DNA of 64,000 nt from a plasmid, in the sequence record NZ_CP088228.1; one strand, written 5' to 3'. This document shows positions 3,001 to 9,000 of the stretch, in pieces; positions within the stretch are counted from its first letter, which is position 1, and each line of letters begins with the position of its first letter. The position numbers were made by a program.

Positions 3001-6000
3001 GAGCATGCCAGTGATTAAACAAAAAGCAGAGCAGTGCATTCATAACTTTCTGCGCGCCCGGAACGTGCCTGAATCTCAGTGGCCGGAGCGGGTAAAAAAG
3101 ACCGGCAGGGGAATGATACTGGCAGGCGTGGCCGTCGTGGTTCCCGGTGTTCTGGTTGATAATATCTCCCTGCCGGTGACAATTGCGATGCAGGTCTGCT
3201 ACGCCTCGCTGATCGGCCTCGGTGTTCTCCTGGCGTTTGACGATAAAAAGCCGAAGAACCGATCCTGAGCAGGAACATCATTCAGAATGGTAACCAGACA
3301 GCCCGGGAGGGACTGATGCAAAAGGTTAAGAGAACGGGGCTGACGCTGGCGGAGGCCAGCGAGCTGTTGAACTGTCAGGACATAAGGGAGATGAACACAA
3401 TGAGGAAGACAAATGAAGTGTAATACTGCAATTTTGTTTGTGGCGCTCACACTGGCAATGCCTGGTGCTGTGAATGCCGCAGCCACAGTGGCGGTTCTTG
3501 ACCAGATGGCCACGAAAAAGCAAAAGGAACGTGAAGACCAGCTCGAAGCCGTGGAACGTGATGCTTTGGCACAGCCAGATGCATGGAAAGCGTATCTACA
3601 GGTGTCTGACGCAGTGCCTGCTGATGCTCCCATCATGCTGCAAAACCGCTACCGCAGCCTCGCCATTTCACTGGCACTGAAGGCTGCAATGGCCTGTTCG
3701 TCAGACGCTCTCAAGCTTCTCGAGCGTAACGACGTAATTGAGTTTCGCGTACTCCGATCATCGTTAGTCTCAGCCTGCAAAACAGCTAAATAAGTTTCGT
3801 GCCAGCTGCCCACTTCCAGATTCCAATGTTCGGCTGGCATTCTCTCAATCCTGTAACCCTCTGTCCTGCATTGTCCTCTTCAGGACAAAAAAAACGGCAG
3901 GGTGACATCTTATCCCTGCCGTCAAAACTAATCGCTTAATTTTTCGGCGATTATAATGTATTGTTTTGTGATGTAAATCACATTTTTATTTAATGTGAAA
4001 TTTTCCCTTCGCTTTATATCTCCCGTAAGAAATTACCCGCCGTGCCTTCACGCTAACCCGGCCGCTGCGGTCGCAAGGGTTCACGTTGTCTCCGTCCTCA
4101 CCCGTTCGCGCCCTGCACGGTGCATTCAGCCCGTGAAGGGCTTGCGCTGCGGCTTCGGCGTCGCCCTGGCGTCCTCCGCTTTACGCCGTGTTTTTGTGGC
4201 GGCACGGCGCAAGAGGGTGCCGGATGCTGAGGACACAACCATGTTCAGACTGACCTGTATTGAACTCGATAACGGCGAGTTTGCCGTCTATATCAATCAC
4301 CATTACCTGGGGAGTGAAGATGCCAGCGGAGAGCGACTTTCTCTGGGGGAGGTTCTGGAGCAGCTCTCCCTGCTGCCGGGCGTGGAATTACAGACCCTGC
4401 TGGAACCCGTACCGGAGTGCGATGACTGGTGCTGGAACGACATCGCCGATCGCGTCCTGCCGTCGCGTCCTGCATGTCGTGATGATGTGACGGTGGCAGG
4501 GCTCATCGCCAGGCTGAAGCAGTACCCACCGGATGCACTGTGTATGGGGACGTTCTGGCTGGAAGATGATTTTCTGTCGCTTGATGACAGTCTGTCGGAG
4601 GAAGAAATTGCAGAAGCCATGCGTATCTGCGACCACAGCCACGATGCAGGCATCGGTTTTAACTGGGACACGCTGCAGTTCGCTATCGACCACGTGAAGG
4701 GGCGCTGAAAAAAAGGACACCATCCGGGGAGGGGGTGTCCTGAAGCCATGCAATTCGTTACAGGTGAAAACCCTTAAGATGTTTTCGGCACTGATAATCA
4801 CATAATCACTTCGCACTTTCACCTGCCATATATCCGACTCAAAAAAAAGACGTCTCCGGTTGGGGACGTCCTGAAATCAAAGGCACACATGTCAGATAAT
4901 GGCGCGAATCCATTATCAGTGTGCATTCTGCCATACACTCACGGACTCATCAGCTACCAGAACCGGTACCGAAGGATGTCGGTTCCCTCCGCCTTATTGC
5001 CGCCAGCCGGCGGCGTGTTCTACGCCGTGCCTTCACGCTAACCCGGCCGCTGTGGTCGCAAGGGTTCACGTTGTCTCCGTCCTCACCCGTTCGCACCTTT
5101 CACGGTGCATTCAGCCCGTGAAAGGCTTGCGCTGCGGCTTGCGGCGTCGCCCCTGCGCCCTCCGCTTTTCGCCGGGTTTTTGTGGCGGCACGGCGCAACA
5201 GGGTGCCGCATATCAGAGAGGAGTGTGTCTATGTCCCGTTTTATTCTGGGTGACTGCGTGCAGGTGATGTCCCGTTTTCCGGCGCGTGCCGTCGATTTTA
5301 TTCTTACCGATCCACCGTACCTGGTTGGCTATAAGGACCGTACCGGCCGCACCCTGGCCGGGGACAACTCTGCCGAATGGCTCCAGCCCGCCTGTCATGA
5401 AATGTACCGCGTGCTGAAAAATGACAGCCTGATGGTGAGTTTCTATGCCTGGAACCGCGCGGATCTGTTTCTGAATGCGTGGAAAACGGCCGGTTTCCGG
5501 GTGGTTGGCCATATCGTCTTTGCCAAGAGCTACGCCTCAAAATCGACGTTCGTGGGTTACACCCATGAGAGCGCCTACCTGCTGGCGAAGGGAAGGCCGC
5601 AAACCCCGGACCGTCCCATCCCGGACGTGATCCCCTGGAAATACACGGGCAACCGACACCATCCGACGGAGAAGCCGGTGCAGAGCCTGCGGCCGCTGAT
5701 TGAATCGCTCACGCGTCCGGGGGCTATTGTCCTTGACCCGTTCGCCGGAAGCGGCTCCACCTGCGTGGCCGCCGCCGAAGCCAGCCGCCGCTATATCGGG
5801 ATCGAGATGCTTGAGCAGTACCACGCCGCCGGCGTTCGACGTCTGGCACAGGTTGAACGGGCAAGAAGGATGCCGGCGGCCAATGACGGCGCGTTTTACC
5901 CCGACTATCCGGAGGCGGCATGAACTACCCGGGCCTTGAAAACCTGCGCGCGGACGTGGCCGCGCTCAGCAATGCCATGTGTGACGTGCGGATGCTGCTG

Positions 6001-9000
6001 AACCGCCTCGAATCGCAGCACCGGCACGACGCGGCAACGCTTACCGAACGTATGGCTGCGCAGACTCTGCGCCGGATCAACACCCTGCTTCTTGAAGCCT
6101 ACCGCGAAGCCCTGGTGCTGGACGAAACCTTTCAGGACTGACTGACCCTGCCGGGCTGATGCCCGGTCTGTAACCCCTTACAAGAGAGAACAAACGATGT
6201 ACGGAACCCGCGAAGAACTTTGTGTACAGCTTGAAAACATGTTCACGTCTGACGAACCCCTGGTCCTGCTGGTCTGGACGGAAGAGGGGATTAGCGTGGC
6301 CTGCCGTGAAGCCCAGCCAGAACCGGACGGGACTGAAATCCGGAATCTGATGAAGGCGATCGGCGAAATGAAAATGACGCAATACCGCCAGGAGGGGGTA
6401 AATAATCTGACTGTCAGCGATCTCCTGGCCCGTCAGCGGGAAGTGGCAAACCGTCAGGTGAGTGTTCCGGCGGTACTCCTGTCCCGCGTCCTGCGTAACT
6501 ATGAATGCGAGCTGGAAAACCGGATCGGTATGGCCTGGGAAGCCGGGCGGCAGGAGCCTGAATCCGTCAGGAATGAGCTGAAGGACGTTCACGCATTACA
6601 GGAGACGCTGGCCGCGTAAGGGAGAGAGCCGGGGTAACGCCCCGGCAACCGGTGGCCATCCACTGCGAAAAGGATGTCAGTGCCTTCCGCTTTTATCCGC
6701 CGCTGCCCTCCGGGCCACGTCGGGACAATGAAACTCCCCTGAAGCTCCGTGCGGTGACGGCATGCGCCGTGACTTCACTGTAGCCCGGCCGCATCGGCCA
6801 CAAGGGTTCGCTTACGCCTCCGTCCTCACCCGTTCGCACCCTTCACGGTGCATTCAGCCCGTGAAGGCTTTGCGCTGCGGCTTGCGGCGTCGCCCCTGTG
6901 TCCTCCGCTTTTCGCCGGTCTGTCGTGTCGTCACGGCGATGCCGGAACCGAGAATATGTTAACCGTGGAGGATCTATGAACCAGACCGTGACCTGTGATG
7001 CTGTTCGTCTTGAGGGTGCGCAGCGCCTGACTTTCCTGCCTGATTTGTTTGGCGGCGATTTTATGACGTCCGAGGCATCCGTGTACGCCTATGCCCAGCG
7101 TTACTGCCCTGAGTATCAGGGGGGATTCTGGCAGTTTTACCGGCTGCCGGAAGGTGGCGGATATATGGCGCCTGACGTGGAGAGCCTGACCCTGTGCAAA
7201 CCGGACAACTGGTTTGAGCAGACTGTCAGCGGGGAAGTGGCGGGGATCATTCTCACGGCGCTGGTACTGAATCACCGGAGCTGGCACCACAGCAACCATG
7301 ACCATGAAGAGCTGTGCCGCCACTTCTGCCGCCGTTATGAGCAGCTTATGGCATTTGCTGATACCCATCCGGAAAGCGCCACGATCTGGCGTGCCCTTGA
7401 CTGACTGACCACGGGCGGCGATGCCGCCCGACTAAAGGAGAAAAACATGATTGGTACAGCAAAAGAGATCGCCATCGAAATGCTGCGTGATGACGATAAT
7501 GACGGCGAGAAATTTGTATTCGCCAGCTGGAGCCGGAACGATATTCGCGGTCTCTGCATTGACTGGGATCTCAGTGATGAAGAGATCGACGTGGTGATGG
7601 AAAGACTGGAGGCAGAGCTGTATCCCTCCGGATGTGTCCCTCTCATCTACAACATTGTTGAGATGATGGTGGAAGAAAAACGGAAACACCGTAATGTCAC
7701 CATTCCGGCTGCGGCGCTTGCGGTGGTGATGCAGCTTGCAGGGAAGGAAATGGAGCGTATCGCTGTATGCGCGGAGGATGGAGGCGGATCAGCGGCAGAA
7801 ACCCTGAAAGAAGAAAATGACGTCATGTTGAGCCTGCGCGCGGCGCTCGATGCCTGACTGAGAAACCGGAGGCATTGCCTCCGGAAACTGAAAAAAGGAG
7901 AACACCATGCAACTGTCACCGGAAACCCGTAACATCCTGCGCCAGTATAAAACGCTCATCAACGAACGACGTCGCGAATCCGGACTCAGCCCCGTAACCA
8001 CAGCGAAAGTGCTGGATGAGATCTGCGAATCGGCTACCCGCCAGTGCGCCGTCTATCTTTGCGGCCACTTCATTCTCCAGGGCGGACAGGGGGATGGAAA
8101 GTAAATAATCCGGGCGGGGCATAGGCGCCGCCTGTTCGCGCGCGAAAACCCTGTCATCCCTTCGGGCTGACGGACGGTAAGGCCAGCGCCTGCGGCGCCG
8201 CCCCCTCCCGCCCGGATGTAAGCCCGGAGAGATGCAGATGAAAGGCATTGTGAGGGCAAATTGTCACGGATACGGTCCTGCGTGGCGTGGCGTGGCGTGG
8301 CGTGGCGTGGCGTGGCGGCTCTGAAACCCGATCAGCAAATCCTCTGAAAACTCCTGAATCCCACTTCTGGCCCCCTTCGGCTCCCGGCCCGCGTGGCGGT
8401 CCGGTCGTCGAGCCCCACTCCGCCAGGTCGGCTGCTGACGCACCCGCCGGGCTCCGCCGAACCCGCAAGCGGTTTCGGGCTGACGCTAGGGTCTGATGGC
8501 TGAGGTCAACCCCCTGGCTTGCACCGGCCGGAGGCCGGGCCGCCCTGACCGCGCCGGCGGAGCCGTCGCTTTAAGGCCGCCACGCCGTTCCGACGTGTCG
8601 GGTGCGTGCATCCTGTTCATCCGGTGAGGCCATCCCCCGTGCGTCCTCACGCGGAGGGCTGCTTGTAGCACCGTCGTGTCGTCATCCGAAGGGTGAAATG
8701 CACGCCGCCAAAACTTTTTGCGTGCCGCAAAAAGTTTTGTCTGCGCCCTTCTCCTGCCGCCCCGCCGTTGCTCCTTTTGCCCTTTGCCGCGAGAGAACTC
8801 ACCAGGGAGATGGCCAGCCATCACCACAGGAGAAAACCAGGATGCACACACGAAACGTCAACGTCAAAACCGCCGCTCAAGAATCTTCCAGGAAGATGGG
8901 GGAAGAACAAAACCCTGTTTCTGTCGCACGGGAGTGGGTGGCTCAGGCCACTTCGCTGAAGGCGGGGGTCACCGTCACCCTGTCCGATGCGTCCCGATAC

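What the first reader, a model, noticed from the sequence alone, without database searches (positions are those of the whole stretch)
4038..6975. Second, unrelated triplicated repeat family (~185 bp) immediately upstream of an acidic ORF, the orphan MTase and the klcA-like gene
Copies at 4038-4225, 5024-5215 and 6765-6950 share a conserved 10-bp stem/10-nt loop hairpin (CCTTTCACGG-TGCATTCAGC-CCGTGAAAGG). Each ends 15-25 bp before an RBS/ATG. Two sequence-unrelated repeat families in one leading region, each gene-proximal, suggests two classes of ssDNA promoter/ssi elements. The two classes may have different timing or strength. Their downstream genes (MTase, KlcA-like) are exactly those needed first in a recipient.
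Basis: partly seen in the sequence, partly recalled or inferred. Interest (0 to 1): 0.68.

Follow-up and report, generated by a model that had tools for sequence, protein, structure and literature searches.

The report
Hairpin promoters for incoming single-stranded plasmid
The three ~177-base repeats are real and are short-tipped relatives of a recently described kind of promoter that works only while a conjugative plasmid is still single-stranded in its new host, so this is a correct reading of something already published rather than a new system.

Summary
Three direct repeats lie at 4036-4211, 5021-5197 and 6763-6940, and they are 82-93% identical. Each ends 31-37 nt before the start codon of a + strand gene: an acidic ORF, an M.EcoGIX-like methyltransferase and a KlcA/ArdB-like protein.

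The window is the leading region of an F-like Enterobacter plasmid. The repeats are unrelated to the window's other repeat family, which is classical Frpo/ssiD (class 1).

They are homologous to the class 2 single-stranded-DNA promoters upstream of klcA and ardA in pESBL and to ssp2 of F (Wen 2025, Fraikin 2026). They are closest to the low-certainty candidates Frpo*1 and Frpo*3 of Samuel 2024.

Across 39 relatives the hairpin is kept by compensatory changes. It folds on the strand that is transferred. TTGnnn-15-TAnnnT sits on its 3' arm, and the complement of the other arm carries a TAnnnT in only 1 of 145 elements. So the promoter exists only in the folded single strand.

The part not yet tested experimentally is the short-tip subfamily with an invariant TGAAT loop.

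The parts
4036..4211 (-). Unit 1. A 176-nt hairpin on the - strand, which is the transferred strand. Closing stem 4038-4045 / 4203-4210. -10 TAGCGT at 4050-4055. -35 TTGCGA at 4071-4076. Tip loop CTGAATG at 4123-4129. Predicted RNA start about A4204 on the + strand.
   Evidence: Folding energy is -46.0 kcal/mol with z -1.7, the weakest of the three. It is the only one of 39 aligned sequences with a mismatch at the helix 2 pair of columns 24/165.
5021..5197 (-). Unit 2. A 177-nt hairpin. Closing stem 5023-5030 / 5189-5196. -10 TAGCGT at 5035-5040. -35 TTGCGA at 5056-5061. Loop CTGAATG at 5108-5114. Predicted RNA start about A5190.
   Evidence: Folding energy is -52.5 kcal/mol with z -4.5; 0 of 200 shuffles fold as well.
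6763..6940 (-). Unit 3. A 178-nt hairpin. Closing stem 6765-6772 / 6932-6939. -10 TACAGT at 6777-6782. -35 TTGTGG at 6798-6803. Loop CTGAATG at 6851-6857. Predicted RNA start about A6933.
   Evidence: Folding energy is -50.4 kcal/mol with z -5.0; 0 of 200 shuffles fold as well.
4241..4708 (+). First gene after unit 1: an acidic 155-aa protein (pI 4.2; 31 D+E against 10 K+R) of unknown function.
   Evidence: There is no Pfam or NCBIfam hit. All 63 homologues that carry a source name are called hypothetical and lie in Enterobacter-like plasmids. The AlphaFold model has pLDDT 70.5 and no PDB match. In the family-wide survey, 8 of the 9 genes of this family sit behind short-tip elements.
5231..5923 (+). 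First gene after unit 2: an orphan DNA methyltransferase. It is followed by 5920-6141 and by a gene annotated DUF1380 (6197-6619).
   Evidence: Pfam PF01555, E 1.4e-37. It is 69% identical to M.EcoGIX of pESBL. The DUF1380 name comes from the annotation of a 99%-identical plasmid.
6976..7404 (+). First gene after unit 3: a KlcA/ArdB-type antirestriction protein. It is followed by a gene annotated DUF1380 (7447-7857).
   Evidence: Pfam PF03230, E 4e-25. It is 49% identical to F YfgB/ArdB.
8595..8901 (-). Context only: the first of three class 1 (Frpo/ssiD-like) elements. The others are at 14550-14869 and 17877-18172.
   Evidence: nhmmer with F ssiD gives E 4e-13, 4e-13 and 1e-12.
4972..4995 (+). 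A conserved motif upstream of units 2 and 3: AAGGATGTC-N-TCCGCYTT. The second copy is at 6670-6693. It repeats part of the 5'-arm block of the hairpin. Similar sequence lies upstream of F and pESBL class 2 elements.
   Evidence: (D3, D10) and the sequences printed. Its role is unknown.

Best explanation
Each unit is a promoter that exists only in single-stranded DNA. It belongs to the class 2 / ssp2 family and is a short-tip variant.

**Proposed mechanism.**
- During conjugation the - strand of this window enters the recipient first, as a single strand (inferred from synteny with F).
- Each unit on that strand folds into a hairpin of about 177 nt (shown by folding and by covariation).
- The 3' arm of the hairpin plays the part of the non-template strand. 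It supplies TTGnnn, a 15-nt spacer and TAnnnT (read directly from the sequence).
- The T at -12 and the T at -7 are paired. The A at -11 and the next two bases face A-rich mismatches, so the -10 region is partly open already.
- Host sigma-70 RNA polymerase starts about 7 nt downstream, inside the closing stem, at about A4204, A5190 and A6933. It reads the 5' arm and continues into the adjacent gene (inferred; not measured for these units).
- The products are an acidic protein of unknown function, an M.EcoGIX-like methyltransferase and a KlcA/ArdB antirestriction protein with their downstream genes. They would be made before the complementary strand exists.
- Once the strand is copied, the non-template strand becomes the complement of the 5' arm. 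That sequence has no TAnnnT and a spacer about 5 nt longer, so the promoter switches itself off (inferred from sequence).
- By analogy with F ssp2, the hairpins may also slow complementary-strand synthesis. This is not tested here.
For: **Context.**
- The window is 99% identical to MOBF/MPF_F Enterobacter plasmids.
- The gene order is parM, methyltransferase, klcA, ParB-like, psiB, psiA, hok/sok, DUF932, transglycosylase (- strand), then traM. This is the order in F.

**Homology.**
- A profile built from the three units plus Frpo*1 and Frpo*3 hits F ssp2 upstream of yfgB at E 3e-15.
- It hits the pESBL hairpins upstream of klcA and ardA at E 3e-16 and 2e-16.
- blastn against Samuel's Frpo*1 gives E 1e-26 to 1e-33.
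- The pESBL and F elements have mapped 5' ends and early induction in transconjugants (PMC12672017). Two other papers describe ssp2 independently.

**Structure.**
- In 39 diverse short-tip relatives, 94.6% of cells pair, against 30-41% when the partner columns are slid.
- 23 of 47 pairs show changes on both sides, against 5-10 when slid. 0 of 500 shuffles reach the observed values.
- The stem around the -35 covaries: TTGCAG/GCAG, TTGTTT/AAACAG, TTGTGG/ACACAG.

**Which strand folds.** On the - strand there are 68 G.T cells and 12 A.C cells.

**Promoter present only in the folded form.**
- Only 1 of 145 unique elements has any TAnnnT on the duplex-form non-template strand.
- No sigma-70 consensus lies on the + strand inside the units.

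**Link to genes.**
- 149 of 160 elements have a ribosome-binding site and an ORF start within about 50 nt downstream, 144 of them at 20-49 nt. In a control on the other side, 37 of 156 do, at scattered distances.
- The downstream genes fall into six families: KlcA/ArdB, N6_N4 methyltransferase, ArdA, DUF1281, the acidic ORF family and a 259-aa family.
Against: - Nothing has been measured for these three units, or for any short-tip member. Samuel et al. rated Frpo*1 and Frpo*3 as low-certainty.
- The hexamers are weak. The best match is about 7 of 12 to TTGACA/TATAAT, and the 15-nt spacer is shorter than the usual 16-18.
- Conservation of TTG and TAnnnT in the 145-element set was partly imposed by my search pattern. 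The unbiased check is small: 16 unique metagenome elements found with a 5'-arm-only pattern. All 16 have TAnnnT and 14 have CTTG at the fixed distance.
- Unit 1 folds only marginally better than shuffles (z -1.7) and has a mismatch in helix 2.
- The transferred strand was assigned by synteny and by the orientation of homologous elements. The nick site itself was not located.
Confidence: 0.85

Rival explanations
1. The units are mainly priming signals or replication roadblocks for complementary-strand synthesis (ssi-type elements) and are not promoters.
For: - Class 1 Frpo transcripts also prime DNA synthesis (cited).
- F ssp2, a homologue, stalls complementary-strand synthesis at the base of its stem until UvrD resolves it.
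- The invariant loop CTGAATG contains CTG, which from my own knowledge is the trinucleotide preferred by E. coli primase.
Against: - The fixed distance of 20-49 nt and the fixed orientation to start codons of six gene families point to a transcriptional role.
- The -10 is present only on one arm.
- In F, early conversion events were seen at ssp1 loci, not at ssp2, and ssp2 does drive yfgB.
- A second role in addition to the promoter role is not excluded. The confidence given here is for priming or roadblock as the sole function.
Confidence: 0.06
2. They are ordinary double-stranded regulatory repeats, such as promoters or operators for a plasmid repressor, and the palindromic shape is incidental.
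For: Repeated sequence in front of several leading-region genes is what a shared operator would look like. A weak + strand consensus match (9 of 12) lies upstream of unit 2 at 4871-4900.
Against: - 23 pairs with compensatory changes across about 177 nt are not expected for a protein-binding site in duplex DNA.
- G.T far exceeds A.C, which shows that one particular strand folds.
- No sigma-70 consensus lies on the + strand inside the units.
Confidence: 0.04
3. They are remnants of a small mobile element (MITE or IS end) that has scattered through the leading region.
For: They are multicopy, about 180 bp long, and have terminal inverted repeats: CGCCGTGCC...GGCACGGCG.
Against: - No target-site duplications flank any of the three units (read).
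- In 160 elements the position and orientation relative to a start codon are nearly fixed.
- The elements were found only in Enterobacterales plasmid-like contigs, next to the same six gene families.
- The internal stems covary, which end-recognition by a transposase does not require.
Confidence: 0.03
4. The structure acts in RNA, as a 5' leader of the mRNA or as an antisense RNA, and not in DNA.
For: Covariation alone cannot tell DNA from RNA of the same strand.
Against: - The mRNA-sense (+) strand is disfavoured by 68 G.T against 12 A.C cells.
- If RNA starts where predicted, the transcript contains only one arm.
- No promoter for a - strand RNA was found.
- Rfam has no match here.
- The homologues act on entering single-stranded DNA.
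Confidence: 0.02

Closest known systems
Class 2 single-stranded-DNA promoters: F ssp2 upstream of yfgB/ardB, and the pESBL hairpins upstream of klcA and ardA (Wen et al. 2025, PMC12672017; Fraikin et al. 2026 bioRxiv; PMC13478746). This is the same element as Frpo' 4 of Samuel et al. 2024.
   Same: - The basal module is homologous: the closing stem GCCGTG/CACGGC, helix CCGGGC/GCCCGG, blocks GCAGGGGCG, AAGCCGCAGC and CGGGTGA, and CCCTTGCA-N-GCCCGGCTAnnnT.
- It lies on the same strand and at the same distance from a start codon.
- It drives the same kinds of gene.
   Different: - The tip is a 13-bp hairpin with a TGAAT loop. In F and pESBL the tip is a longer domain that adds about 55 nt and carries its own conserved motifs.
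- Here the family also drives the M.EcoGIX-like methyltransferase, which in pESBL and F has a class 3 promoter, and an acidic ORF.
- No experimental data exist for the short-tip form. Whether it stalls replication as ssp2 does is unknown.
Frpo* 1 and Frpo* 3, low-certainty candidates from an insect-gut metagenome element (Samuel et al. 2024, Supplementary Table 2)
   Same: They are the same short-tip subfamily. They are about 75% identical over the whole unit, at E 1e-26 to 1e-33 for Frpo*1 and 1e-11 to 1e-14 for Frpo*3. They share the CTGAATG loop.
   Different: They were listed only as sequences with 'distant similarity' to Frpo. No structure, covariation or link to class 2 was given.
Frpo / ssiD of F and ssi1-3 of ColIb-P9 (class 1; Masai and Arai 1997; Bates 1999; Nasim 2004)
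   Same: The principle is the same: a long hairpin on the transferred strand rebuilds a sigma-70 promoter upstream of leading-region genes. Three such elements sit in this same window.
   Different: There is no detectable sequence similarity. Class 1 is about 330 nt long and has the AAAAGTTTT palindrome. Class 1 is reported as the strongest class and as a source of primers.
Class 3 single-stranded-DNA promoter upstream of M.EcoGIX (pESBL; F ssp3)
   Same: It drives the orthologous methyltransferase gene.
   Different: It is unrelated in sequence, and the window has no homologue of it. I placed class 3 at pESBL L008 about 4470-4770 because only that region and the klcA hairpin pass the authors' -75 kcal/mol criterion. 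This placement is my inference.

Membership tests
Class 2 ssDNA promoter (ssp2 family) | Sequence homology to the hairpins upstream of klcA and ardA in pESBL and upstream of yfgB in F | tested here: met
   The profile of the window units hits F L006 7487-7722 at E 3e-15, pESBL L008 7102-7337 at E 3e-16 and L008 14049-14292 at E 2e-16. The shared 3'-arm motif is present in all of them.
Class 2 ssDNA promoter (ssp2 family) | Lies in the leading region, on the transferred strand, pointing into the downstream gene | tested here: met
   Gene order and orientation match F. The units have the same orientation relative to psiB and traM as F ssp2. The nick site itself was not located.
Class 2 ssDNA promoter (ssp2 family) | A long stem-loop that rebuilds -35 and -10 boxes | tested here: met
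   Covariation is. TTGnnn-15-TAnnnT lies on the 3' arm.
Class 2 ssDNA promoter (ssp2 family) | Tip domain and overall length as in F and pESBL (about 230 nt) | tested here: not met
   The units are 176-178 nt with a simple tip hairpin. The family is bimodal, with 67 short and 78 long unique elements. This marks a subfamily, not a different family, because the basal module is shared.
Class 2 ssDNA promoter (ssp2 family) | Transcription from single-stranded DNA early in the recipient, with a mapped start site | not testable with these tools
   Only a prediction can be given: starts near 4204, 5190 and 6933 (corrected by one base).
Class 2 ssDNA promoter (ssp2 family) | Inactive once double-stranded | not testable with these tools
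   There is a sequence hint only. The duplex-form non-template strand has TAnnnT in 1 of 145 elements, and the + strand of the units has no consensus promoter.
Class 2 ssDNA promoter (ssp2 family) | UvrD-resolved block to complementary-strand synthesis (shown for F ssp2 only) | not testable with these tools
   Known. No computation can decide this for the short-tip form.
Class 1 (Frpo / ssi1-3) | Sequence similarity to F ssiD or ColIb-P9 Frpo1-3 | tested here: not met
   No blastn hit is better than E 0.08. The window's other repeat family does match, at E about 1e-13.
Class 3 (M.EcoGIX promoter, ssp3) | Sequence similarity to the hairpin directly upstream of M.EcoGIX | tested here: not met
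   blastn of the pESBL and F regions against the window gives no hit at E 0.01.
Miniature transposable element | Terminal inverted repeats plus target-site duplications, at varied insertion sites | tested here: not met
   Inverted ends are present. There are no flanking duplications. Position relative to start codons is fixed in 149 of 160 elements.

The most novel reading that the evidence does not exclude
The short-tip elements carry an invariant TGAAT pentaloop. 61 of 67 unique elements have CTGAATG, on top of a stem with 43 different sequences.

The most novel reading not excluded is that this loop is a sequence-specific docking site for a protein. Candidates are RNA polymerase, primase (the loop contains CTG), a helicase such as UvrD, or a protein transferred with the plasmid.

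That would give this subfamily a second function, or a different on/off timing, compared with the long-tip ssp2 type. Leading regions would then mix at least four functionally distinct single-strand promoter types.
Probability: 0.2. Interest if true: 0.6.

Novelty: new member of a known kind. Interest (0 to 1): 0.33.

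Why it matters
**Why the element class matters.** Single-strand promoters decide which plasmid genes are expressed in the first minutes after conjugative entry. They therefore affect whether a resistance plasmid survives restriction in a new host.

**What this analysis adds.**
- The class 2 type is not confined to F and IncI1. It occurs in thousands of Enterobacterales plasmids: 4153 PLSDB records, including pKpQIL-type Klebsiella plasmids and Yersinia pFra.
- The family comes in two tip forms, short and long.
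- It is swapped between orthologous genes. The M.EcoGIX-like methyltransferase has a class 2 promoter here and a class 3 promoter in pESBL and F.
- It can be used as a flag for early-expressed genes that may be anti-defence genes, such as the acidic ORF family and a 259-aa family.

None of this changes the published mechanism.

Tried and rejected
- **Rfam scan of the whole window.** Only sok was found.
- **F under accession AP001918.** It is not in the collections, so NC_002483 was used instead.
- **Supplement of Wen et al.** It holds the mapped start sites but is not held in the library. The predicted starts could therefore not be compared with measured ones.
- **First alifold run with DNA parameters.** On a plain MAFFT alignment it recovered only the basal stems, because two tip sub-types are aligned out of register. 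I used RNAalifold and then a hand-curated structure.
- **Search for an F-type nick sequence.** Hits were at chance level.
- **Metagenome scan with a 5'-arm-only pattern.** Most hits were chance hits in GC-rich soil data. Only 21 of 125 passed a membership filter.
- **Is Wen's class 3 the short class-2-like element upstream of the DUF1281 gene?** I rejected this. That region reaches only -70.5 kcal/mol, while the hairpin next to M.EcoGIX reaches -91.8.
- **Acidic ORF.** Pfam, NCBIfam, homologue names and a Foldseek search of a moderate-confidence model gave no function.
- **Integron attC-like recombination site.** I considered and dropped this. By eye I saw no attC-type end motif in the sequence, and the annotation of a 99%-identical plasmid shows no integrase gene beside the units. 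No formal test was run.

Full report
**1. What is in the sequence**

The repeat finder recovers the three copies at 4038-4225, 5023-5211 and 6766-6954. Each copy also has inverted outer arms, for example 5023-5047 against 5171-5195 (pairs I4, I6, I9).

Trimmed to the closing stem, the units are 4036-4211, 5021-5197 and 6763-6940. Pairwise identity is 92.7%, 81.5% and 83.7%.

Folded as single-stranded DNA on the - strand, the results are:

| Unit | Energy (kcal/mol) | z-score |
|---|---|---|
| 1 | -46.0 | -1.7 |
| 2 | -52.5 | -4.5 |
| 3 | -50.4 | -5.0 |

All three close with the same outer stem.

The start codons of the three downstream genes are at 4241, 5231 and 6976. The coordinates I first took were off by one or two bases and were corrected. 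That is 31-37 nt after the closing stem.

**2. Where the window comes from**

The region is 99% identical to MOBF/MPF_F plasmids of Enterobacter hormaechei and E. kobei.

On the + strand the genes run parM, the three units with their genes, a ParB-like gene, psiB, psiA, hok/sok (Rfam) and DUF932. A lytic transglycosylase follows on the - strand at 19392-19832, and then traM.

This is the layout of the F leading region. There the leading genes are transcribed using the transferred strand as template. By synteny, the transferred strand here is the - strand. I did not locate the nick site.

**3. Relation to known elements**

Supplementary Table 2 of Samuel et al. 2024 lists known and candidate Frpo sequences.

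- The window units match the low-certainty candidates Frpo*1 (E 1e-26 to 1e-33) and Frpo*3 (E 1e-11 to 1e-14).
- They do not match ColIb-P9 Frpo1-3, F ssiD or F ssiE.
- The other repeat family in the window (8595-8901, 14550-14869, 17877-18172) matches F ssiD at about E 1e-13 on the - strand. It is class 1.

Wen et al. 2025 (PMC12672017) defined three classes in the IncI1 plasmid pESBL from transconjugant RNA-seq and 5' RACE:

- class 1: Frpo/ssi;
- class 2: upstream of klcA and ardA;
- class 3: upstream of M.EcoGIX.

They report classes 2 and 3 as conserved in F. Fraikin et al. (bioRxiv 2026) showed that F ssp2, upstream of yfgB/ardB, also stalls complementary-strand synthesis until UvrD resolves it. 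A third paper found ssp2 independently and noted that it is 86% identical to a Samuel candidate.

I fetched F and pESBL. A profile built from the window units hits:

- F ssp2 at E 3e-15;
- the pESBL klcA and ardA hairpins at E 3e-16 and 2e-16;
- a third, shorter relative just upstream of the DUF1281 gene in both plasmids, at E about 1e-13.

The class 3 region has no match in the window. With the authors' own criterion (300-nt windows below -75 kcal/mol), only the hairpin next to M.EcoGIX and the klcA hairpin pass in that part of pESBL. The DUF1281-proximal element reaches -70.5. So it was probably not reported.

**4. The family at large**

A distant blastn of unit 2 finds 4153 plasmid records. 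Most are Klebsiella; the rest include Enterobacter, Citrobacter, Serratia, Yersinia, Salmonella and Pantoea. In pKpQIL, Pantoea, Serratia and Y. pestis pFra the element sits directly upstream of methyltransferase, klcA-type or ardA genes.

A 3'-arm motif scan of one genome per species found 116 loci. Nearly all are in Enterobacterales. Four lie in unrelated taxa, two on contigs under 2.3 kb, and are probably contamination.

From these loci and the plasmid loci I extracted 160 elements, 145 of them unique. Lengths are bimodal: 67 short and 78 long unique elements.

149 of 160 have a ribosome-binding site and an ORF start within about 50 nt downstream, 144 of them at 20-49 nt. In a control on the other side, 37 of 156 do, at scattered distances.

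The first downstream genes form six families:

| Family | Unique proteins | Tip form of the element |
|---|---|---|
| KlcA/ArdB | 43 | mixed |
| N6_N4 methyltransferase | 33 | mostly short |
| ArdA | 29 | long only |
| DUF1281 | 14 | short only |
| Acidic ORF family | 9 | 8 short |
| 259-aa family | 4 | mixed |

**5. Structure**

An alignment of 39 diverse short-tip elements (A1) gives an RNAalifold structure in which 22 of 41 pairs show compensatory change.

With a hand-curated structure of 47 pairs:

- 94.6% of cells pair, against 30-41% when partners are slid by 1-3 columns;
- 23 pairs show changes on both sides, against 5-10 when slid;
- the covariation score is 0.26, against at most 0.067 when slid;
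- 0 of 500 shuffles reach any observed measure.

On the - strand there are 68 G.T cells against 12 A.C cells, or 37 against 12 without one conserved wobble. The - strand is therefore the strand that folds.

The tip is a hairpin of about 13 bp. Its stem takes 43 different sequences, while the loop is CTGAATG in 61 of 67 unique elements. Long-tip elements replace this with a larger domain that has its own conserved motifs.

**6. Promoter anatomy**

On the 3' arm, which takes the place of the non-template strand in the hairpin, the units carry:

| Units | -35 | Spacer | -10 |
|---|---|---|---|
| 1 and 2 | TTGCGA | 15 nt | TAGCGT |
| 3 | TTGTGG | 15 nt | TACAGT |

Family-wide the commonest forms are TTGCAT and TACAGT or TAAAGT.

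- The first T of the -35 hexamer (TTGnnn) faces a G, forming a wobble or a bulge.
- The stem next to the -35 covaries.
- The -12 T and -7 T are paired. The -11 A and the next two bases face A-rich mismatches.
- The template arm carries about five extra bases (GAAAA) within the spacer.

TTG and TAnnnT were part of my search pattern, so their conservation in the 145 elements is not independent evidence. Two checks are independent:

- A 5'-arm-only pattern in metagenomes gave 16 unique members. All 16 have TAnnnT, and 14 have CTTG at the fixed distance.
- The complement of the 5' arm, which becomes the non-template strand in duplex DNA, carries a TAnnnT in only 1 of 145 elements.

The consensus scan finds no + strand sigma-70 promoter inside the units.

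Counting 7 nt from the -10 puts the RNA start at about A4204, A5190 and A6933. This gives leaders of 37-43 nt (corrected by one base for the pairing register).

**7. Verdict**

The elements are short-tip members of the class 2 / ssp2 family of single-stranded-DNA promoters.

Shown here:
- homology;
- a conserved hairpin on the transferred strand;
- a one-armed -10;
- tight coupling to anti-restriction-type genes.

Inferred:
- actual transcription from the single strand;
- the start sites;
- shut-off on conversion to duplex;
- any roadblock role.

The mechanism is already published, so novelty is modest.

Not yet in the literature I could read:
- the short-tip subfamily with its invariant loop, as a defined group;
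- its use in front of an M.EcoGIX orthologue (69% identity) that has a class 3 promoter elsewhere;
- an apparently unreported relative upstream of the DUF1281 gene in F and pESBL.

The acidic ORF behind unit 1 remains without function.

Noticed in passing
L008 3277-3446 (pESBL record about 53,277-53,446) and L006 3662-3830 (F record about 52,661-52,829): A third, roughly 165-nt class-2-like hairpin sits directly upstream of the DUF1281 gene in both plasmids. In F that gene is frameshifted. The gene heads the run that contains M.EcoGIX. The hairpin misses the -75 kcal/mol cut used by Wen et al., so it is probably unreported.
   Followed up: partly
window 4241-4708: An acidic 155-aa protein (pI 4.2) lies behind unit 1. 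It has no Pfam or NCBIfam hit. It has 63 homologues, and every one with a source name is called hypothetical. The model has pLDDT 70.5 and no PDB fold match. By position it is a candidate anti-defence gene.
   Followed up: partly
window 4972-4995 and 6670-6693: A motif AAGGATGTC...TCCGCYTT lies 45-90 nt upstream of units 2 and 3. It repeats part of the 5'-arm block of the hairpin. Similar sequence lies upstream of class 2 elements in F and pESBL. Unit 1 lacks it.
   Followed up: no
window 5231-5923: The methyltransferase is 69% identical to M.EcoGIX, which the literature describes as specific for single-stranded DNA. Here it has a class 2-type promoter. In pESBL and F it has a class 3 promoter, so promoter modules have been exchanged between orthologous genes.
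   Followed up: partly
window 8595-8901, 14550-14869, 17877-18172: Three class 1 (Frpo/ssiD-like) elements are present. The larger repeat around each one extends about 200-300 nt further upstream (8368-8861, 14262-14830, 17570-18139). With the three class 2 units this makes six putative single-strand promoters in about 14 kb.
   Followed up: partly
window 13612-13783: There is a sok antisense RNA of a hok/sok toxin-antitoxin locus (Rfam RF01794, 97.8 bits). In the near-identical E. kobei plasmid an IS3-family element is inserted at this locus.
   Followed up: no
window 4185-4190 (unit 1, helix 2): Unit 1 has CACGGC where unit 2 has CCCGGC. This breaks a pair that is kept in the other 38 aligned relatives and goes with its weak folding z-score. 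Unit 1 may be a weaker or decaying copy.
   Followed up: partly
L047, L059, L063, L082: The motif also hit contigs assigned to Streptomyces, Leucobacter, Ferruginibacter and Oscillibacter. The contigs range from 562 nt to 11.4 kb. They most likely contain contaminating enterobacterial plasmid DNA.
   Followed up: no
L163 and L185 (metagenome): Two class 2 members have 20 nt instead of 15 between TTGCAA and TACGAT. The spacer length is therefore not absolutely fixed.
   Followed up: no
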